From assembly GCA_022825265.1 (NCBI GenBank), contig JAJDXE010000004.1, forward strand, positions 270,341 to 334,340: DNA of 64,000 nucleotides, read 5' to 3'. The notes under the pieces were generated by a model. That model saw only the letters and a program-made list of their open reading frames with translations, was not told where the DNA came from and searched no databases. This document shows positions 5,649 through 42,038 of this stretch, piece after piece; positions within the stretch are counted from its first letter, which is position 1; the number at the start of each line of letters is the position of its first letter. The DNA comes from Dehalococcoidia bacterium. Its GTDB lineage: Bacteria > Chloroflexota > Dehalococcoidia > Bin125. The translations under genes were made by a program, and so were the position numbers.

Positions 5649-5740
5649 GAGCTCCCCCTCTGGGGGAGCTGCCGCACCCATGTCCTCTCTCCCCCCGCGT
5701 AGCGGGGGGAGATGCCGAAGGCAGAGGGGGGTCCCCAGAA
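5649..5740. repeat. Intergenic palindromic repeat element of the CCCCCTCTGGGGG family, locus A.
   Basis: Sequence is gagctCCCCCTCTGGGGGagctg, then ctccccccgcgtagcggggggag, then gaggggggtcccc. The same family is seen at about 15468, 15894, 19730 and 40581. Confidence 0.7.
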
Positions 5741-13870: not shown

Positions 13871-15460
13871 ATGGAAGTCCCGCTGCTAGTCAACGATTTT
13901 CTGCGCCGCGCATCGAAGCTCTACGGACCCTCCGAAGCCGTCATCGACGGCGACCGTCGCTTCACCTGGGCCGAGTTCAACGCCCGCGTCAACCAGCAGG
14001 CCCACGCCCTGCTCGACGCCGGCATCGGCAAAGGTGACCGGGTCGGCATCATCGCTCCCAACTCACACCAGTTCCTCGAGACGTTCTACGCCACGGCCGC
14101 GATCGGCGCGGTTGTGGTGCCGATGAACTACCGCCTGATCCCGGCCGACTTCGAGTACATGCTCGAACACTCCGGCTCGAAGGTCGTCCTGGTCGACGCC
14201 GAATTCACCCACCTCGTCGACGAGATTCGCGGCAACGTCAACACCGTCGAGCACTTCATCGCCATTCCCTACGGCGACGCGCCGATCAATCCCGGCTGGA
14301 CCAACTACGAGGACTGGATTACCGATCAGGCGACATCGCAGCCGCCCGACCCGGGCCTGAACGAGACCGACCTGCTCTCGATCAACTACACCTCGGGCAC
14401 CACGGCGCGGCCCAAGGGCGTGATGATCACGCACCGCAACGCCTACATCAACGCCTACAACTTCATCGCCCACCTGCGTATCTCGCAGGACGACGCCGAG
14501 ATGTGGACGCTGCCCATGTTCCACGCCAACGGCTGGGGTGGCCCCTATGCGATCACCGCGATGGGCGGCAAGCACGTCGTCCTTAGAGCGCCCGAGGCAG
14601 CCGACATCTACCAGGTGATCCAGGACGAGAACTGCACCTTCGCCTGCATGGCTCCGGCGGTTCTGGCGCGCATCCTCGAGTTCGAGCGCAAGGACGATTA
14701 CAACATCACGGTCCGCCCGCGATTCACCGTCGCCGGCGCGCCGCCACCGCAGGCCTTCATCGAGCGCCTGGAGAAGGAGATCGGCTGGGAGTTCATCCAG
14801 ATTTACGGGCTCACCGAGACCTCGCCGATCCTCACCGTCTCCGAGGTCAAGCCCTACCTCGGCGTCGACGATGACGGCTACTTCGGCACCAAGGTCCGCG
14901 CGGGACACGACGTGATCGGCGTCGAGGTCAAGGTCGTCCGAGACTCCGGCAAGGAAGTCGCCTGGGACGACGAGGAGGTCGGCGAAGTCGTCGCCCGCTC
15001 CAACGTCGTCCTGCGCGGTTACTGGCAGCAGCAAGAAGAGACCGACAAGGTCATCGTCGACGGCTGGTTCCACACCGGCGACATGGCGACGGTCAACCAG
15101 GACGGTTACATCAACATCGTCGACCGGGCCAAGGACGTGATCATCTCAGGAGGAGAGAACATCTCCAGCATCGAGGTCGAGGACGTGCTCTACGACCACC
15201 CGGCGGTGCTCGAAGCGGCGGTCATCGGAGTGCCTTCGGAGCAGTGGGGCGAGACGCCGCTCGCCCTGATCGTGCCTCGGGAGGGGCATGATGTCACGAG
15301 GGATGACATCGTGGCCCACTGCCGAGCGACGATGGCAGGCTTCAAGATCCCGCGTCGGGTGGAGTTCGTGGAGACACTGCCTCGCACGGCGACGGGCAAG
15401 CTCAAGAAGTTCGAGCTCCGTGAGGCCTACTGGGAAGGCGTCGAAAAGCGGGTCAACTGA
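13871..15460 (+). CDS. AMP-dependent acyl-CoA synthetase/ligase (FadD-like).
   Basis: Contains YTSGTTARPKGV (AMP-binding motif I) and a C-terminal GKLKK. Confidence 0.85.
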   Translation: MEVPLLVNDFLRRASKLYGPSEAVIDGDRRFTWAEFNARVNQQAHALLDAGIGKGDRVGIIAPNSHQFLETFYATAAIGAVVVPMNYRLIPADFEYMLEHSGSKVVLVDAEFTHLVDEIRGNVNTVEHFIAIPYGDAPINPGWTNYEDWITDQATSQPPDPGLNETDLLSINYTSGTTARPKGVMITHRNAYINAYNFIAHLRISQDDAEMWTLPMFHANGWGGPYAITAMGGKHVVLRAPEAADIYQVIQDENCTFACMAPAVLARILEFERKDDYNITVRPRFTVAGAPPPQAFIERLEKEIGWEFIQIYGLTETSPILTVSEVKPYLGVDDDGYFGTKVRAGHDVIGVEVKVVRDSGKEVAWDDEEVGEVVARSNVVLRGYWQQQEETDKVIVDGWFHTGDMATVNQDGYINIVDRAKDVIISGGENISSIEVEDVLYDHPAVLEAAVIGVPSEQWGETPLALIVPREGHDVTRDDIVAHCRATMAGFKIPRRVEFVETLPRTATGKLKKFELREAYWEGVEKRVN

Positions 15461-15467
15461 CTCCCGA

Positions 15468-15512
15468 GACCTCCCCCTCTGGGGGAGGTGCCCCGAAGGG
15501 GCGGAGGGGGCC
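15468..15512. repeat. Left inverted-repeat arm of the CCCCCTCTGGGGG-family element flanking the DUF559 gene.
   Basis: Sequence gacctCCCCCTCTGGGGGaggtgccccgaaggggcggagggggcc. It is an imperfect reverse complement of the arm at 15894-15938. Confidence 0.7.
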
Positions 15513-15528
15513 CGCCGAGGCACCGACG

Positions 15529-15888
15529 ATGGCACATCGCGAATACGAGTACGCGCCTCTTGAGCAGATCGACTTTGCAAGAACGCTACGCGCGAACGCC
15601 ACCGACGCTGAGATTTTGCTCTGGAGCAGGCTCCGCCGAAAGCAGGTAGGCGGCCATCGGTTCCGGCGACAGCACCCGATAGGCGGATACGTGGCTGATT
15701 TCACCTGCGTCTCGGAACGCCTGGTCATCGAACTCGATGGTGGGCAGCACTCAGAGCGCAGGCGCCGCGACGAAGCTCGTACCCAAGACCTAGAAGCGAT
15801 GGGATATCGCGTGCTCCGATTCTGGAACGACGATGTCTTCAATGATCTTGACAACGTCGTCGAGCGAATCGCGGCCGAGTTGACGTAG
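15529..15888 (+). CDS. DUF559 domain endonuclease (Vsr-like / very-short-patch-repair-like fold).
   Basis: 119 aa: ...ILLWSRLRRKQVGGHRFRRQHPIGGYVADFTCVSERLVIELDGGQHSE...DLEAMGYRVLRFWNDDV, a DUF559 signature. Confidence 0.8.
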   Translation: MAHREYEYAPLEQIDFARTLRANATDAEILLWSRLRRKQVGGHRFRRQHPIGGYVADFTCVSERLVIELDGGQHSERRRRDEARTQDLEAMGYRVLRFWNDDVFNDLDNVVERIAAELT

Positions 15889-15893
15889 CGGGC

Positions 15894-15938
15894 GGCCCCC
15901 TCAGTCGCTTCGCGACAGCTCCCCCAGAGGGGGAGCTC
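15894..15938. repeat. Right inverted-repeat arm of the DUF559-carrying element.
   Basis: Sequence ggccccctcagtcgcttcgcgacagctcCCCCAGAGGGGGagctc. Its reverse complement aligns to the left arm. Confidence 0.7.
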
Positions 15939-16103
15939 CTGACGTTCGGAATTTTAGTCGCCGAGTGCCAGAATCTCGATCACGGTGCACGTGACGCGAG
16001 ATTCTGCTCGTCCGTGTTGAGCCTCCGCATCCATCACACTGCACGCGCCTTCATCTCACGGCGCGGCGAACCGCGGCCCTTGAGCACCTATCTGGCGACG
16101 CGC

Positions 16104-16910
16104 TCAGGTGTTGCGGCGACGCCCGAGGCGGTCGAAGAAGCTATTGTCGAGTTGCAGCACTCTGCCCAGATCGTCGTCAATCACCAGTCCCAGCCCGTAG
16201 TCCCGAAGCAAGTCGACCAATTCCTCGCCGTCCACCAGCTCAATAGGCTTCGCGCCACCGCGCCGGTCCGCCTCTTCGCGGGCGGCCGCCGTGAACGTCC
16301 CCGTTGTGATCAACAGTCCTTGTCCCGTTCGCCCGTCGAGGACGCCCCGAAAGTCCCGCACCTCCGAGGGTCCGACCGACCTCTGGTACCGCTTGCATTG
16401 GAAATAGACGGGGAACGACTTGCGCAGAATTCGATGCTGGCCAACGCCGTCGATTCCCTGATCGCCCGACCCGCCGAGGACCCTGACTTCGGTCAGCCCA
16501 GCCGATTGCAGCAGCTTGGCGGCTAGGTATTCAAACTGCATCGGGTCAAGCTGTTGCAGGCGCGCTAGAAGCTGGCCTTGCCAATCAGTGAGCGCGACGG
16601 CCAACGATGCTGCGGTCGCGCGATCTTGGTGAACCGGAGGCGGGAAGCCATCCAATGCGCGCAGTTGGCGCTCGAGCTCGGTTTGGCGATCTTGAGATTT
16701 GTGCAGGAGGCCCTCTACCGACTCATACCATCCTCTGTCTGAACGACGACGAGACTTACTGTCTAACTCTCGCTTGGCGAGTACTCGTTCGTACATCTCC
16801 TGATTCGCCTGCTCAGACTTGATCTTCTTCTCTAGCCTGTCGCGTTCGGCGCGTTCGTTCGCTTGTTGCCAGGCGGTCTTTAGTCGATTGAAGGTGTTGC
16901 CCAGTCCCAC
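16104..16910 (-). CDS. Mrr-like restriction endonuclease (Mrr_cat domain) with N-terminal coiled coil.
   Basis: Segment FEYLAAKLLQSAGLTEVRVLGGSGDQGIDGV...YFQCKRYQRSVGPSEVRDFRGVL...GLLITTGTFTAAAREEA matches the Mrr catalytic core. GC is lower than in neighbouring genes. Confidence 0.7.
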   Translation of the reverse strand: MGLGNTFNRLKTAWQQANERAERDRLEKKIKSEQANQEMYERVLAKRELDSKSRRRSDRGWYESVEGLLHKSQDRQTELERQLRALDGFPPPVHQDRATAASLAVALTDWQGQLLARLQQLDPMQFEYLAAKLLQSAGLTEVRVLGGSGDQGIDGVGQHRILRKSFPVYFQCKRYQRSVGPSEVRDFRGVLDGRTGQGLLITTGTFTAAAREEADRRGGAKPIELVDGEELVDLLRDYGLGLVIDDDLGRVLQLDNSFFDRLGRRRNT

Positions 16911-16931
16911 GCAGCTTTACCTTACGCTTCC

Positions 16932-19729: not shown

Positions 19730-19784
19730 GCTTCCCCCCTCTGGGGGGGAAGCTGTCCCGTAGGGACTGAAGGGGGGTCCCCGC
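19730..19784. repeat. CCCCCTCTGGGGG-family palindromic element, locus D, between the two esterase paralogues.
   Basis: Sequence gcttCCCCCCTCTGGGGGGGaagc, then gtcccgtagggac, then gaaggggggtcccc. Confidence 0.7.
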
Positions 19785-39222: not shown

Positions 39223-39322
39223 TGATGAACGGCCTCCCTGTCGACGATGGTAATCGAACGTGTGCCCACCCTCTACACTGGCCCCAGACCTCCCGCGTAC
39301 CCCTCCGATGAAGGAGTTTCCG

Positions 39323-40561
39323 ATGAAGTTTCACTGGTTCAACCTGATGCCCTGGCCTCATCTTCCGGATGATTTCCGGGAGACGAATCGGTCGGTCTGG
39401 GTCGATGTGGACTCTCGGCTGTATGACCCGGTGGAGGGTCACCGGGTGTACAACGAGTACCTGGACCAGCTTGAGTTTGCGGCCGGGCTGGGCTTTGACG
39501 GGATCGGCGTGAACGAGCATCACCAGAACGCGTACGGGATGATGCCGTCGCCGCAGATCATGGCGGCCTCGCTGGCTCGGCGGACGAAGGACGTGACGCT
39601 GCTGCTGCTGGGTCAGTCGATTGCGCTGTACAACCCGCCGACTCGGGTGGCGGAGGAGATGGCGATGCTCGACGTGATGTCGGGCGGTCGGCTGGTGGCG
39701 GGATTCCCGGTGGGGACGTCGATGGACGACAACTTCTGCTTCGGCTCGAATCCGGCGACGCTGCGGGACAAGTACAGGGAGAATCACGACCTGATCCGTC
39801 GGGCGTGGGAGGATCCGGATGTCTTCTCGTGGAACGGCGAGTACAACAAGATTCGCTACGTCAACCTCTGGCCGCGTCCGATCCAGAAGCCGCACCCGCC
39901 GATCTGGATTCCCGGCGGCGGCTCGGTGGAGACCTGGGACTTCTGCGCGGAGATGGGCTACAACTACAGCTATCTCTCGTTCAATGGCTATGTCCGCGGT
40001 GAGGCTCTGATGCAGGGCTTCTGGAATCGGCTGGGCGAGATGGGCGTCGAGTTCAATCCGTTCCAGGGCGCGTTTGCGCAGCAGGTCGTGGTCGCCGAGA
40101 CCGACGATCAGGCCGAGCAGATGTACACCGAGCATCTGCAGTACTTCTTCGACAAGTGTCTGCATGTGTATCCCGGCTTCGCCGACGCGCCCGGGTACCG
40201 GACCGAGAACACAATCCGGGCCGGTCTGCGAGCCGGCGGCGCGCAGGGTCTGGGCATTGCGCACACGCTCGAGTGGAAGGACTGGGTGCGCGAGGGCTAC
40301 ATCGTGGCCGGCTCGCCGGACTCGGTGGCGGAGCAGATCGAGGCCCTGGCGACGAAGCTGCAGGTCGGCCACCTGGTGACTCTGCTGCACTGCGGCGACA
40401 TGCCGGACGACAAGGCTCGGGCGTCGACGAAGCTGTTCGCCGAGCAGGTGATGCCTCGGGTGAAGCACATCTGGGAAGACTACGAAGATCACTGGTCGCC
40501 GAAGCCGATCGGCTCGGAGCAGGTCGCGACGCCGGCTCCGGTGCTGACGGGCTCCAACTAG
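39323..40561 (+). CDS. LLM-class flavin-dependent oxidoreductase.
   Basis: Begins MKFHWFNLMPWPHLPDDFRETNRSVWVD...NEHHQN. An AAGGAG sits 7 nt upstream of the ATG at 39323. Confidence 0.8.
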   Translation: MKFHWFNLMPWPHLPDDFRETNRSVWVDVDSRLYDPVEGHRVYNEYLDQLEFAAGLGFDGIGVNEHHQNAYGMMPSPQIMAASLARRTKDVTLLLLGQSIALYNPPTRVAEEMAMLDVMSGGRLVAGFPVGTSMDDNFCFGSNPATLRDKYRENHDLIRRAWEDPDVFSWNGEYNKIRYVNLWPRPIQKPHPPIWIPGGGSVETWDFCAEMGYNYSYLSFNGYVRGEALMQGFWNRLGEMGVEFNPFQGAFAQQVVVAETDDQAEQMYTEHLQYFFDKCLHVYPGFADAPGYRTENTIRAGLRAGGAQGLGIAHTLEWKDWVREGYIVAGSPDSVAEQIEALATKLQVGHLVTLLHCGDMPDDKARASTKLFAEQVMPRVKHIWEDYEDHWSPKPIGSEQVATPAPVLTGSN

Positions 40562-40580: not shown

Positions 40581-40722
40581 GAAGACCTCCCCCTCTGGGG
40601 GAGGTGCCCCGGAGGGGCGGAGGGGGCCTCTCTGCGAGCTGCGGACGTTAACGAATCTGACAGTGGGAGCCGAGCCCCCTCAGTCGCTTCGCGACAGCTC
40701 CCCCAAAAGGGGGAGGTCTTGC
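40581..40722. repeat. Complete but empty MITE-like copy of the CCCCCTCTGGGGG-family element: both inverted-repeat arms around a 44-bp core.
   Basis: Left arm is gacctCCCCCTCTGGGGGaggtgccccggaggggcggagggggcc. Right arm is gccccctcagtcgcttcgcgacagctcCCCCAAAAGGGGGaggtc. These match the arms flanking the DUF559 gene at 15468 and 15894 nearly base for base. Confidence 0.7.
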
Positions 40723-40787: not shown

Positions 40788-42038
40788 GTGAAGTTCCACT
40801 GGTTTCACGGGATGCCGTGGCCGCATTTGCCGGCCGATTTCCGTGAGCGCAATCGATCCGTGTGGGTTGACGCCGACTCGCGGTTGTACGAGCCGGTCGA
40901 GGGCCACCGGCTGTATCACGAATACCTGGATCAGCTCGAGTTCGCCGAGCGCGTTGGTTTCGACGGGCTGGTGCTCAACGAGCATCATCAGCACGTCTTT
41001 GGCCTGATGCCGTCGCCTCAATTGATGGCGGCGGCGTTGGCCCGGCGAACGTCGCGGGCGGCGATCGTTCTGCTGGGCATGTCGATCGCGCTCTACCGTC
41101 CGGCGACGCGGGCGGCGGAGGAGATCGCGATGCTCGACGTGATCTCCGGCGGCCGGATCGTGGCTGGATTTCCACTCGGCACGCCGATGGACGCAAACTA
41201 CGCCTATGGAGCGAATCCGGCGGAGTTTCGTCGCGTCTACCGCGAGCACCACGATCTGATCCTGCGGGCCTGGAAGGATCCGGACGTATTCACCTGGAAC
41301 GGCGAGTCGGCGAAGCTGCGCTACGTGAATGTCTGGCCGCGTCCGGTTCAGCAGCCGCATCCGCCGGTCTGGATTCCCGCGGATGGCGTCTCGTCGGAGA
41401 CGTGGGACTTTTGTGCTGAGCACAGGTACGCCTATGTTTGTCTCGCCTCTCGCGGATTCGCACCGGCGCAGTCGGCGATGGACGGATTCTGGTCGCGAGT
41501 TGAGTCGCGAGGGATCCCATGCAATCCGTACCAGGGTGTGGTTTCTCAAACGATTGTGGTGGCTGAATCCGATGAGGAGGCGCAGGAACGGTATCAGCCG
41601 CATCTGGACTACACGTCGCGGCACACGCTTGGCGACTTCCCCGGCTGGACCGAGGCGCCCGGCTGGCGCACGGAGCGGGGCATCCGCGAACGCGCCGTCC
41701 GAACGATGGCCGACCTGGGTAATCCAACTCCGCCGCGCATCCCGACGTGGCAAGAGCGAATAGACAGCGGCTCGCTGGCCGCCGGTTCGCCGGTGACGGT
41801 CACCGAGCACTTGGAGCACCTGGTGACAACGCTGCGCGCCGGCCACCTGGTCGGCGTGTTCCACGTCGGCGATATGCCGCACGACGCGACCCTGCGCAGC
41901 ACTCGACTGTTTGCTGAGCAGGTAATCCCACGTCTGCGACACTTGTGGGACGATTACGACGACCACTGGTCGCCGACCCCGATCGCGACCGAACCACTGA
42001 AACGAACGACTGAACCCGAACTCGCAGGAGTGAACTGA
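40788..42038 (+). CDS. LLM-class flavin-dependent oxidoreductase, paralogue of 39323-40561.
   Basis: GTG start. MKFHWFHGMPWPHLPADFRERNRSVWVD..., colinear with the upstream paralogue. Confidence 0.8.
   Translation: MKFHWFHGMPWPHLPADFRERNRSVWVDADSRLYEPVEGHRLYHEYLDQLEFAERVGFDGLVLNEHHQHVFGLMPSPQLMAAALARRTSRAAIVLLGMSIALYRPATRAAEEIAMLDVISGGRIVAGFPLGTPMDANYAYGANPAEFRRVYREHHDLILRAWKDPDVFTWNGESAKLRYVNVWPRPVQQPHPPVWIPADGVSSETWDFCAEHRYAYVCLASRGFAPAQSAMDGFWSRVESRGIPCNPYQGVVSQTIVVAESDEEAQERYQPHLDYTSRHTLGDFPGWTEAPGWRTERGIRERAVRTMADLGNPTPPRIPTWQERIDSGSLAAGSPVTVTEHLEHLVTTLRAGHLVGVFHVGDMPHDATLRSTRLFAEQVIPRLRHLWDDYDDHWSPTPIATEPLKRTTEPELAGVN

What the first reader, a model, noticed from the sequence alone, without database searches (positions are those of the whole stretch)
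15456..15950. Mobile-element-like unit: DUF559 (Vsr-fold) endonuclease gene bracketed by about 45-bp terminal inverted repeats of a CCCCCTCTGGGGG palindromic family.
The 119-aa DUF559 gene (15529-15888) sits exactly between two arms. The left arm (15468-15512) is gacctCCCCCTCTGGGGGaggtgccccgaaggggcggagggggcc. The right arm (15894-15938) is ggccccctcagtcgcttcgcgacagctcCCCCAGAGGGGGagctc. The right arm's reverse complement aligns to the left arm (ga.ctccccctctgggggag.tg.c.cgaag.g.c.gagggggcc). A CTGAC pentamer occurs just outside both ends, which could be a target-site duplication. A small nuclease with TIRs is the layout of an autonomous selfish element. DUF559 genes are not normally described as TIR-bounded cargo.
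Basis: seen in the sequence. Interest (0 to 1): 0.75.

Follow-up and report, generated by a model that had tools for sequence, protein, structure and literature searches.

The report
Nuclease gene nested in triplex-repeat pair
A small DUF559 nuclease gene sits inside an inverted pair of BoxC/PIT-type "triplex" DNA repeats, and the same layout recurs around DUF559 genes in many bacterial phyla, which makes this nuclease a candidate partner enzyme for a repeat family whose origin has been unexplained for 30 years.

Summary
The inverted repeat is real: 50 nt, 82% complementary. It brackets an intact YcjD-type DUF559 gene.

Each "arm" is a self-contained 42-nt module made of a C-block, a TCT loop, a complementary G-block, a GNA mini-hairpin and a mirror-image G-block. 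This is a variant of the BoxC/PIT/"TM" intrastrand-triplex repeats described in E. coli.

The window holds six such modules: the two arms, two solos, and a gene-less doublet at 40585-40716 with the same left and right arm types. The module, up to 40/40 nt identical, also occurs in Alphaproteobacteria, Bacillota, Chloroflexota, Acidimicrobiia and Phycisphaerales, almost always without DUF559.

The CTGAC "target duplication" is chance. The unit sits at the same site, arms intact, in four Dehalococcoidia genomes whose synonymous sites are about saturated. So there is no sign of recent mobility.

The reverse association is strong. Of 76 diverse DUF559 loci, 78% have such a motif just upstream. Of 69 with both flanks, 51% have inverted flanks (1% of control ORFs; ~2% expected for the upstream motif). 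E. coli ycjD, Enterobacter, Deinococcus and Picosynechococcus also carry flanking motifs.

I found no paper noting this link. My best reading is an old nuclease-repeat partnership laid out like RAYT-REP. The mechanism is inferred, not shown.

The parts
15469..15510 (+). Left arm: a 'G-type' intrastrand-triplex module. Block 1 is ACCTCCCCC (15469-15477). Loop 1 is TCT (15478-15480). Block 2 is GGGGGAGGT (15481-15489). Loop 2 is the mini-hairpin GCCCC-GAA-GGGG(C) (15490-15501). Block 3 is CGGAGGGGG (15502-15510), the mirror image of block 2. It starts 9 nt after the stop codon of the acyl-CoA synthetase gene.
   Evidence: Triplex-aware detector. The DNA fold gives a 9-bp and a 5-bp hairpin with the G tail unpaired. 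It is 42-45/45 identical in L001, L002 and L102.
15529..15888 (+). DUF559 (YcjD-type, Vsr-fold PD-(D/E)XK) nuclease gene, 119 aa, with a GAGG Shine-Dalgarno-like motif 9-12 nt upstream of the ATG.
   Evidence: Pfam PF04480 E=4e-41. NCBIfam PRK09767 E=1e-27, below its curated cut-off. PDB 3HRL E=6e-26 and 3R3P E=6e-4. It keeps all 24 invariant family columns. Amino-acid identity is 75% against 47% third-codon identity with L002, which indicates purifying selection.
15896..15936 (-). Right arm: a 'C-type' triplex module on the minus strand. Read 5'-3' it is GCTCCCCC-TCT-GGGGGAGC, then TGTCGC-GAA-GCGAC, then TGAGGGGG. Hairpin B differs from the left arm by compensatory changes.
   Evidence: The 40-nt core is identical in Caulobacter vibrioides T5M6 (L009), other Caulobacter loci and Dehalococcoidia L052.
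40585..40716 (.). Gene-less tail-to-tail doublet. It has the same G-type module (40585-40626, +) and C-type module (40675-40716, -), separated by a 48-nt spacer. It lies between two paralogous luciferase-like monooxygenase genes.
   Evidence: Left arm 30/31 and right arm 31/31 identical to the DUF559 arms. Detector. The DNA fold is -46.9 kcal/mol, z=-5.6.
5650..5735 (+). Solo, composite module of the same family. Hairpin A is GAGCTCCCCCTCTGGGGGAGCTG, followed by an extra C/G hairpin, then TGCC-GAA-GGCA and a GAGGGGGG tail. It lies about 10 nt after a stop codon.
19730..19777 (+). Solo variant module: GCTTCCCCCC-TCTG-GGGGGGAAGC, then TGTCCC-GTA-GGGAC, then TGAAGGGGGG. It lies just after a stop codon. 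It is present at the orthologous site in L002 and replaced or degenerate in L001.

Best explanation
**What it is (shown).** The unit at 15469-15936 is a YcjD-type DUF559 nuclease gene. It lies in the spacer of a tail-to-tail inverted doublet of BoxC/PIT/TM-type intrastrand-triplex repeats.

**Anatomy of an arm (shown).** Each arm is a C-block, a Watson-Crick G-block and a mirror-image G-block. In place of the usual 3-nt second loop it has a stable GNA mini-hairpin.

**History (shown).** The unit is an old, chromosomally fixed resident, not a recently moved transposon. The same repeat family is scattered through this genome and through many phyla without the gene. The DUF559-triplex-motif linkage is a general property of this DUF559 subfamily.

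**How it works (inferred).** The gene and the repeats form a nuclease-repeat partnership organised like RAYT-REP/REPIN. There is one vertically inherited nuclease gene flanked by the repeats it acts on. Gene-less doublets and solos are the dispersed, non-autonomous population.

The proposed action is that DUF559 recognises the folded or extruded motif, or mismatches between the two arm types, and nicks it. Repair and gene conversion then copy, homogenise or rearrange the repeats. No step of this enzymology has been tested.
For: **The arms are triplex motifs**
- The block 1/2/3 geometry is found by a mirror-repeat detector at all six window sites; 1-6 hits appear in shuffled windows.
- There is three-way covariation at the eighth triad in 86 distinct modules: G-C-T 46, C-G-G 33, other 7.
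- The tail stays unpaired in DNA folds.
- Holder et al. 2015 (PMC4666352) describe the same architecture. They report inverted doublets that always pair two types, and they found no mobility genes.

**General linkage to DUF559**
- A triplex motif in + orientation ends within -120..+30 nt of the start in 59/76 DUF559 loci. About 0.02 is expected per flank.
- The upstream flank aligned to the reverse complement of the downstream flank scores >=30 in 35/69 loci, against 1/78 control ORFs.
- In several metagenome loci the DUF559 stop codon lies inside the right-hand motif.
- Isolate genomes also carry flanking motifs. Picosynechococcus and Deinococcus have them on both sides. E. coli K-12 ycjD and Enterobacter asburiae have them on the downstream side only.

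**RAYT-like behaviour**
- The gene and arms are syntenic in four genomes.
- The arms are 93-100% identical while third-codon identity is 0.42-0.47.
- A gene-less doublet with the same arm types lies in the same genome.
- In a spread sample of E. coli complete genomes, 37 ycjD+ genomes have 16-33 matching places (mean 23). 22 ycjD- genomes have 2-20 (mean 9). This agrees with the Holder supplement and the eef paper.
- Triplex-motif-rich Enterobacter asburiae has a DUF559 gene. No Salmonella homologue appears among the named top hits. Holder et al. report no TM_ECO motifs in Salmonella.

**Nuclease plausibility**
- The fold family includes a homing endonuclease (PDB 3R3P).
- Caulobacter, whose genomes are full of this exact module, has SOS-induced DUF559 genes. 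One of them, VsrA, causes DNA damage in vivo (PMC12907096).
Against: - No biochemical link between DUF559 and the motif exists. A Vsr-fold nickase has no known strand-transfer activity.
- The E. coli correlation is confounded by phylogeny and is not absolute. ycjD-less O157:H7 and some other genomes keep 14-20 copies.
- Only about 42% of DUF559 loci have a detectable downstream motif. Some have the opposite polarity, for example Deinococcus. Enterobacter asburiae has none upstream.
- Protein similarity tracks motif class only weakly: 51.5% within class against 49.9% between.
- Triplex motifs at orthologous sites in this lineage look old rather than actively spreading.
- Hoyne and Maher found no in vivo effect of PIT elements, as summarised in PMC4666352.
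Confidence: 0.45

Rival explanations
1. Homing-endonuclease-like gene. DUF559 is a free-standing selfish nuclease gene that cleaves the spacer of gene-less triplex-motif doublets and is copied into them by repair. The doublets would be its landing pads rather than its products.
For: - The gene sits precisely in the doublet spacer. Removing the ORF leaves about 22 nt, within the 14-75 nt range of empty spacers.
- The Vsr-like fold is used by a known homing endonuclease (3R3P, E=6e-4; PADLOC 'HEase', E=1e-4).
- The DUF559 unit lies at different chromosomal loci in E. coli and Enterobacter.
- Partial tandem copies occur in L102 and next to E. coli ycjD.
Against: - An apparently intact gene coexists with an unoccupied doublet with near-identical arms 25 kb away.
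- There is one copy in the window, and it is syntenic in four genomes with saturated synonymous divergence.
- It is rare on plasmids (34 of 72,556 records) and in viral contigs.
- It is not sporadic among close relatives.
Confidence: 0.15
2. No enzymatic relationship. The motifs are cis-acting structures for the gene, or recombination-prone hot spots that trap it. As cis-acting structures they could act as insulators or translational controls of a potentially toxic nuclease. For example, the G-rich third block could double as a Shine-Dalgarno site and the CCUCC block as an anti-SD.
For: - The upstream motif is far more constant (78%) than the downstream one (42%), and it ends close to the start codon.
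- Triplex-motif loci are documented hot spots of rearrangement (PMC4666352).
- A Mrr-type gene is inserted right next to the right arm in this window only.
- Tandem duplications occur at L102.
Against: - Control ORFs in the same loci show no such flanks (1/78), so a general hot-spot effect does not explain the specificity for DUF559.
- Purine-motif triplexes do not form in RNA, and PIT elements showed no promoter or terminator activity (PMC4666352).
- No intrinsic terminator or promoter signal was found here.
- Regulation does not explain why the same modules are dispersed genome-wide.
Confidence: 0.2
3. One reading: an autonomous TIR-bounded transposon, with the 45-bp arms as transposon ends, CTGAC as the target-site duplication and DUF559 as the transposase-like nuclease.
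For: - A 50-nt inverted repeat at 82%.
- A MITE-like gene-less pair.
- A dispersed arm family.
Against: - The CTGAC pentamers are asymmetric and absent in three orthologous loci.
- There is no empty-site allele among the relatives.
- The arms are complete functional-looking modules that occur singly in most cases.
- There is no DDE, HUH or serine/tyrosine recombinase.
- The arms are far more conserved than the gene.
Confidence: 0.05
4. Chance juxtaposition. Two independent 3'-end modules of convergent genes (acyl-CoA synthetase and hydrolase) happen to flank a small gene.
For: - In the window every + module lies just after the stop codon of a + gene.
- In L001 the right arm starts 14 nt after the hydrolase stop.
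Against: - The cross-phylum enrichment is 59/76 against about 2% expected, and 35/69 against 1/78.
- Stop codons are embedded in the right-hand motif in many loci.
- The gene-less pair at 40585-40716 is not between convergent genes.
Confidence: 0.05

Closest known systems
BoxC / PIT (potential intrastrand triplex) elements / TM_ECO (Bergler 1992; Hoyne & Maher 2000, 2002; Holder et al. 2015, PMC4666352)
   Same: - The three-block architecture is the same: a C-block, a complementary G-block and a mirror G-block.
- Both are intergenic and multi-copy, with high sequence conservation across taxa.
- Inverted doublets always combine two subtypes.
- Both are associated with local rearrangement.
   Different: - The blocks are CTCCCCC / GGGGGAG / GAGGGGG, not CCCTCNCCC / GGGNGAGGG / GGGNGAGGG.
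- The published work reports no associated gene. It states that no mobility functions were found and does not mention ycjD or DUF559.
REP / REPIN - RAYT systems (REPtrons; Nunvar 2010, PMC2817692; Bertels & Rainey; from my own knowledge beyond the title and abstract)
   Same: - A single-copy, vertically inherited nuclease gene is flanked by inverted copies of a short structured repeat.
- That repeat also populates intergenic regions as singlets and as inverted doublets.
- Two repeat subtypes alternate in orientation, as in BIMEs.
   Different: - The gene is a Vsr-fold PD-(D/E)XK nuclease, not an HUH Y1 (IS200/IS605-type) transposase.
- The repeat is a triplex-capable mirror/inverted composite rather than a simple palindrome.
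- The repeat sequence is shared across phyla rather than being species-specific.
MITEs and their parent TIR transposons
   Same: There is a long copy with a gene and a short gene-less copy bounded by the same inverted arms.
   Different: - There is no target-site duplication and no transposase.
- The arms are autonomous modules that mostly occur singly.
- The long copy is syntenic and ancient.
Vsr-fold (EDxHD) homing endonuclease I-Bth0305I (PDB 3R3P; identification from my own knowledge)
   Same: It has a related nuclease fold (E=6e-4) and is a small selfish-type nuclease.
   Different: - That enzyme is intron-encoded in a phage gene.
- DUF559 here is free-standing, chromosomal and stably inherited.
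Vsr / VsrA very-short-patch repair nickases (E. coli Vsr; Caulobacter VsrA, PMC12907096)
   Same: - Same fold superfamily.
- VsrA carries a DUF559 domain, is SOS-induced and can damage DNA.
   Different: - No cytosine methyltransferase gene was identified among the genes adjacent to the unit.
- The match to the vsr model is only marginal (E=0.007, far below its cut-off).
- The repeat context is not part of the VSP-repair paradigm.

Membership tests
BoxC/PIT/TM intrastrand-triplex repeat | Pyrimidine (C-rich) block followed by a Watson-Crick complementary purine block (hairpin) | tested here: met
   9-bp (left arm) and 8-bp (right arm) perfect stems with a TCT loop.
BoxC/PIT/TM intrastrand-triplex repeat | Third block that is the mirror image of the purine block (G.G-C, A/T.A-T triads) | tested here: met
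   GGGGGAGGT against CGGAGGGGG, and GGGGGAGC against TGAGGGGG, each with one mismatch. Three-way covariation holds in 79/86 distinct modules.
BoxC/PIT/TM intrastrand-triplex repeat | Short loops (ITxF: 1-6 nt; TM_ECO second loop = 3 nt) and the TM_ECO consensus CCCTCNCCC-N3-6-GGGNGAGGG-N3-GGGNGAGGG | tested here: not met
   The second loop is a 12-14 nt mini-hairpin and the block sequences differ (definition). It is therefore a variant, not TM_ECO itself.
BoxC/PIT/TM intrastrand-triplex repeat | Multi-copy and intergenic; inverted doublets pair two subtypes | tested here: met
   There are six modules in 64 kb, all intergenic. Both doublets pair a G-type with a C-type module. The same pairing occurs in Caulobacter.
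BoxC/PIT/TM intrastrand-triplex repeat | [quoted passage not shown] | not testable with these tools
   Only secondary-structure folding is available.
DUF559 (PF04480), YcjD-type Vsr-fold nuclease | Significant match to the family profile over its full length | tested here: met
   139.7 bits against a cut-off of 20.6, profile positions 4-108 of 109. PDB 3HRL E=6e-26.
DUF559 (PF04480), YcjD-type Vsr-fold nuclease | Conserved core residues retained | tested here: met
   All 24 invariant columns of a 27-sequence alignment are present, including D57, E68, D70, Q73, H74, R97 and N100.
DUF559 (PF04480), YcjD-type Vsr-fold nuclease | Endonuclease activity | not testable with these tools
No biochemical assay of a stand-alone DUF559 protein was seen in the papers I read.
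TIR transposon / MITE | Terminal inverted repeats | tested here: met
   50 nt, 82% complementary.
TIR transposon / MITE | Target-site duplication flanking the ends | tested here: not met
   The CTGAC pentamers are asymmetric. One overlaps a stop codon and the other lies in a lineage-specific insertion. Both are absent in L001, L002 and L102.
TIR transposon / MITE | Encoded transposase; presence/absence polymorphism; several full copies | tested here: not met
   The only ORF is a Vsr-fold nuclease. There is one copy in the window. It is present at the same site in four genomes.
REP/REPIN-RAYT | Gene flanked by inverted copies of a repeat that is dispersed as singlets and inverted doublets | tested here: met
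REP/REPIN-RAYT | Gene encodes an HUH Y1 transposase (PF01797) | tested here: not met
   Pfam gives only DUF559 and MTES_1575. It works like this family but is not a member.
REP/REPIN-RAYT | Repeat abundance tracks presence of the gene | tested here: inconclusive
   In E. coli, ycjD+ genomes have a mean of 23 places and ycjD- genomes a mean of 9. The distributions overlap and the comparison is confounded by phylogroup.
Homing endonuclease gene | Sporadic distribution and occupied/unoccupied alleles of one target site | tested here: not met
   The gene is syntenic in all four relatives. An empty doublet persists in the same genome.

The most novel reading that the evidence does not exclude
YcjD-type DUF559 nucleases are the cognate enzymes of BoxC/PIT intrastrand-triplex repeats. 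This would be a second, RAYT-independent nuclease-repeat symbiosis, spanning several phyla (seen here in Pseudomonadota, Bacillota, Chloroflexota, Deinococcota and Cyanobacteriota, with the arm module also in Acidimicrobiia and Phycisphaerales). The enzyme would recognise a folded DNA triplex/hairpin, or mismatches between the two arm types, and drive the spread, homogenisation and instability of these repeats by nick-initiated repair.
Probability: 0.35. Interest if true: 0.85.

Novelty: new variant of a known kind. Interest (0 to 1): 0.7.

Why it matters
BoxC/PIT/TM repeats have been known since 1992. They are abundant and highly conserved, and they are linked to genome instability. Yet no protein partner, origin or spreading mechanism is known. 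The main survey states that no mobility functions were ever found near them.

DUF559/YcjD is a very large family (thousands of homologues) whose function is essentially unknown.

A specific, cross-phylum physical linkage of the two gives each a testable hypothesis. YcjD-on-BoxC binding, nicking and instability assays can be done directly in E. coli K-12. If confirmed, the result would extend the REPIN-RAYT concept to a different nuclease fold and to a non-B-DNA repeat.

Tried and rejected
- **Exact-sequence look-ups.** Look-ups of the window protein and of P0044 found no contigs.
- **Rfam.** Scans of the unit and of the gene-less doublet gave only spurious long-hairpin (miRNA-type) matches far below gathering scores. 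It is not a curated RNA family.
- **Literature by sequence.** Full-text searches for CCCCCTCTGGGGG and its reverse complement returned nothing. The link to the triplex literature came only through the E. coli variant GGGTTAGGGTGAGGG.
- **TRIP1 repeats.** These are unrelated.
- **First module detector.** It required perfect stems and a narrow tail pattern and was too insensitive. I replaced it with a mirror-repeat detector.
- **Alternative hairpin idea.** I considered that the G tail pairs with the C-block. The K/S covariation fits a triad, not a Watson-Crick partner.
- **Flank versus dispersed motifs.** I tested whether DUF559-flanking and dispersed motifs in the same contig share block sequences. 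With n=14, 5 were observed against 3.1 expected, which is not significant.
- **Protein similarity versus motif class.** The difference is statistically detectable but tiny, 1.6 percentage points.
- **Plasmid and virus scans.** DUF559 of this type is rare there, so no obvious vector emerged.
- **Promoter/terminator scan.** Nothing useful.
- **Apparent convergent pair in L038.** It turned out to be tandem TM_ECO-like motifs upstream of a small membrane-protein ORF, not a second cargo gene.
Full report
**1.

The window has an inverted repeat with arms at 15468-15517 and 15889-15938. It is 50 nt long, 82% complementary, and the arms are 371 nt apart. Between the arms lies one ORF, 15529-15888 (+), 119 aa. 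It matches Pfam DUF559 at E=4e-41 over the whole profile.

The core CCCCCTCTGGGGG occurs five times in 64 kb against 0.12 expected. Both arm sequences recur, 30/31 and 31/31 identical, at 40597-40627 and 40674-40704. There they face each other across only 48 nt with no gene.

The CTGAC pentamers exist but are not a target duplication.
- The left one (15457-15461) is 6 nt from the arm and contains the TGA stop of the upstream acyl-CoA synthetase.
- The right one (15939-15943) is the first 5 nt of a 988-bp segment carrying an Mrr-type gene. That segment is present only in this genome.
- Neither is found at the orthologous positions of three relatives.

**2. What the arms are**

Each arm is a complete module in its own right. 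Read from its outer end, the left arm is ACCTCCCCC / TCT / GGGGGAGGT / GCCCC-GAA-GGGG(C) / CGGAGGGGG. The right arm is GCTCCCCC / TCT / GGGGGAGC / TGTCGC-GAA-GCGAC / TGAGGGGG.

The second block pairs with the first. The last block is the mirror image of the second, not a direct or inverted copy. Both arms fold as DNA into the same shape, a 9-bp hairpin and a 5-bp hairpin with the G-rich tail left free.

These came from Caulobacter, Phenylobacterium, Sphingomonadales, Clostridia/Oscillospiraceae, Veillonellaceae, Dehalococcoidia, Acidimicrobiia and Phycisphaerales. Nearly every hit (73 of 86 distinct modules had a detectable tail) continues with a small hairpin of variable, compensating stem sequence and then C(T/G)GAG(G/A)GGG.
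- The hairpin has at least 22 distinct perfect stems, with loops GAA, GCA or GGA.
- The right-arm core is 40/40 identical in Caulobacter vibrioides and in this Chloroflexota window.

At the eighth position the three strands covary: 5' base, stem base and tail base are G-C-T in 46 distinct modules, C-G-G in 33, and something else in 7. That pattern fits a base triad. It does not fit an alternative hairpin.

This is the architecture of the BoxC / PIT / "TM_ECO" elements of E. coli. Holder et al. 2015 (PMC4666352) define these as CCCTCNCCC-N3-6-GGGNGAGGG-N3-GGGNGAGGG.
- They show triplex formation in vitro.
- They count 23 copies in MG1655.
- They note five inverted doublets that always pair a type A with a type B motif.
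- They state that no transposase or integrase remnants were ever found nearby.

The window's arms are a variant. The same rule applies to doublets here: they pair two subtypes, G-type on the left and C-type on the right. This holds in both window doublets and in Caulobacter. Rfam has no matching family.

**3. The locus is old, not recently mobile**

The closest homologues are Chloroflexota proteins. Three relatives were examined.
- L001: 87% amino-acid identity.
- L002: 75% amino-acid identity, on a 3.26-Mb contig.
- L102: Dehalococcoidia OZ247431.1.

All three carry the gene at the same place, between the same acyl-CoA synthetase and alpha/beta-hydrolase genes, with both arms.

Between the two clades, third-codon positions are only 42-47% identical, yet the left arm is 42-45/45 identical. 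So the arms are constrained or homogenised far beyond neutral expectation, and the protein is under purifying selection.

The solo module at 19730 is likewise shared with L002 but degenerate in L001. L102 has three tandem ~165-nt units, each with the last bases of the synthetase gene, a left arm and the first codons of the ORF. Only the last unit continues into a full gene. Together with the Mrr insertion beside the right arm, this fits the published association of these motifs with local rearrangement.

**4. How often do arm pairs hold a gene?**

In the 119 genome loci (827 kb) the detector found 294 motifs.
- 56 gene-less tail-to-tail doublets, with spacers of 14-75 nt.
- 5 head-to-head doublets.
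- 174 motifs not in a close doublet.
- One doublet containing DUF559, which is L102, the orthologue of the window unit.

Only 5 loci have any DUF559 ORF within 8 kb. So the arms overwhelmingly occur without the gene.

**5. The converse is striking**

Eighty diverse DUF559 loci were drawn from metagenomes by protein similarity alone, at 45-63% identity.
- Of 76 with enough upstream sequence, 59 (78%) have a triplex motif in + orientation ending between -120 and +30 of the start.
- Of 72, 30 (42%) have a minus-orientation motif at the stop.
- Of 68, 21 have both.
- The background of 0.29 motifs per kb predicts about 0.02 per flank.

An alignment-only test that knows nothing about motifs gives the same picture. 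The upstream flank aligned to the reverse complement of the downstream flank scores at least 30 in 35/69 loci, against 1/78 control ORFs from the same contigs.

The block sequences differ by lineage (CCCTCTCCC, CCCTCCCC, CCTTCCCCC and others), but the layout is constant. In several loci the stop codon lies inside the right-hand motif, where TAA or TAG is the complement of the TTA or CTA loop.

Cultured organisms also carry flanking motifs.
- E. coli K-12 ycjD has a degenerate motif over its stop codon, a partial duplicate of its own 3' end, and an exact TM_ECO about 175 nt downstream. It has none upstream.
- The Enterobacter asburiae homologue lies at a different chromosomal locus. It ends inside a type-B motif that is followed by a type-A motif, and it also lacks an upstream motif.
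- Picosynechococcus PCC 7002 and Deinococcus proteolyticus genes are bracketed on both sides by their own local variants. Deinococcus has the opposite polarity.

**6. Does repeat number follow the gene?**

The eef paper (PMC12817139) reports ycjD in E. coli phylogroups A, B1 and C. In B2, D, E and others, eefRABCD occupies its place.

Holder's supplement lists TM_ECO counts by strain.
- A, B1 and C strains: 19-30.
- B2 strains: 1-2.
- O157:H7: 11.
- Phylogroup D strains and IAI39: 6-15.

I searched all 5,426 complete E. coli genomes with ycjD plus its downstream motif. The gene is present in 3,377 genomes. In an evenly spread sample, 37 ycjD+ genomes have 16-33 matching places (mean 23) and 22 ycjD- genomes have 2-20 (mean 9).

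Among named YcjD homologues are Enterobacter asburiae and E. cloacae, which are motif-rich according to Holder. No Salmonella appears, and Holder reports Salmonella as motif-free.

The trend is in the predicted direction, but it overlaps and is confounded by phylogeny. I treat it as suggestive only.

**7. The protein**

The protein keeps all invariant family positions. It matches the solved Neisseria DUF559 structure 3HRL at E=6e-26. It also matches 3R3P, "mobile intron protein", at E=6e-4. From my own knowledge, 3R3P is the Vsr-fold homing endonuclease I-Bth0305I.

It is only marginally similar to Vsr itself. Homologues are rare on plasmids (34 of 72,556 records, mostly megaplasmids) and in viral contigs.

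The one in vivo study I found is on Caulobacter VsrA. It carries a DUF559 domain, is SOS-induced, and causes DNA damage in a methyltransferase mutant (PMC12907096). Caulobacter genomes are full of the very module seen here.

**8. Interpretation**

Shown:
- The unit is a DUF559 gene in the spacer of an inverted doublet of triplex-type repeats.
- The repeats are a known kind, in a new variant.
- The unit is ancient and fixed.
- The DUF559-repeat linkage is general.

Inferred:
- The layout is one vertically inherited nuclease gene flanked by inverted copies of a repeat that also populates the genome as singlets and two-type doublets. This is the layout of RAYT-REP/REPIN systems, with a different nuclease fold.
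- I therefore favour a cognate nuclease-repeat partnership (about 0.45).

Rivals:
- A homing-type gene that targets doublets (0.15). An unoccupied near-identical doublet in the same genome and long-term synteny argue against it.
- A purely cis-regulatory or hot-spot relationship (0.2). The specificity for DUF559 and the genome-wide dispersal of the repeats argue against it.
- Chance (0.05).

**9. Novelty and limits**

Full-text searches gave the following.
- DUF559 returned 25 papers, ycjD 17.
- DUF559 combined with "inverted repeat" returned three papers, none relevant.
- Combining "intrastrand triplex" with "endonuclease" returned none.
- A broader search for later triplex-motif and BoxC/PIT papers turned up none linking the repeats to this gene family.
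- Holder et al. mention neither ycjD nor any endonuclease.

The library lacks most subscription journals, including the original BoxC and PIT papers, so prior mention cannot be excluded. All functional statements about DUF559 acting on the repeats are hypotheses.

Noticed in passing
window 15939-16926: A 988-bp segment carries an Mrr_cat (type IV restriction-like; PADLOC PDC-S02/mREase_IV) gene at 16104-16910 (-). It is inserted directly outside the right arm. It is absent from the orthologous site in L001, L002 and L102, where 4-60 nt of unrelated sequence stand instead. This is a defence-type gene landing next to a triplex motif.
   Followed up: partly
L102 5330-5740 (Dehalococcoidia OZ247431.1): Three tandem ~165-nt units. 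Each holds the last ~25 nt of the acyl-CoA synthetase gene, a left-arm module and the first codons of a DUF559-like ORF. Only the third unit continues into the full gene. This is local tandem duplication at the motif.
   Followed up: partly
L202 4190-4420 (E. coli K-12, downstream of ycjD): A partial duplicate of the ycjD 3' end (about 45 nt, GGAGACGGTGCTGGAGAATATTC...) lies between the gene and an exact TM_ECO motif. From memory, the repeat named BoxC was first described in the neighbouring fabI (envM) region; I did not check this.
   Followed up: no
window 39260-40561 and 40788-42038: Two paralogous luciferase-like monooxygenase genes in tandem, both starting MKFHWF(N/H).MPWPHLP.DFRE.NRSVWVD.DSRLY.PVEGHR.Y.EYLDQLEFA. 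The gene-less doublet lies exactly between them.
   Followed up: no
window 5650-5735: A composite solo module. Hairpin A is followed by an additional TCTCCCCCC-GCGTAGC-GGGGGGAGA hairpin before the mini-hairpin and G tail. On the other strand it reads as a second, overlapping triplex motif.
   Followed up: no
L038 80-150 and 513-555 (Dehalococcoidia OZ219765.1): One genome carries both TM_ECO-like motifs (CCCCTCTCCC-TCT-GGGAGAGGG-TTA-GGGTGAGGG, two in tandem) and the hairpin-loop variant seen in the window. They flank a small membrane-protein ORF, so two motif families coexist.
   Followed up: no
L009, L105, L116, L117 (Caulobacter) versus window 15897-15936: 40/40-nt identity of the right-arm core between Alphaproteobacteria and a Chloroflexota genome. 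This implies horizontal spread or extreme constraint on the module.
   Followed up: partly
L196 2870-3420 (metagenome contig Ga0209581_1000174): The ~130 nt upstream of the DUF559 start are repeated almost exactly after its stop, including what looks like the start of another copy. This suggests tandem DUF559 units.
   Followed up: no
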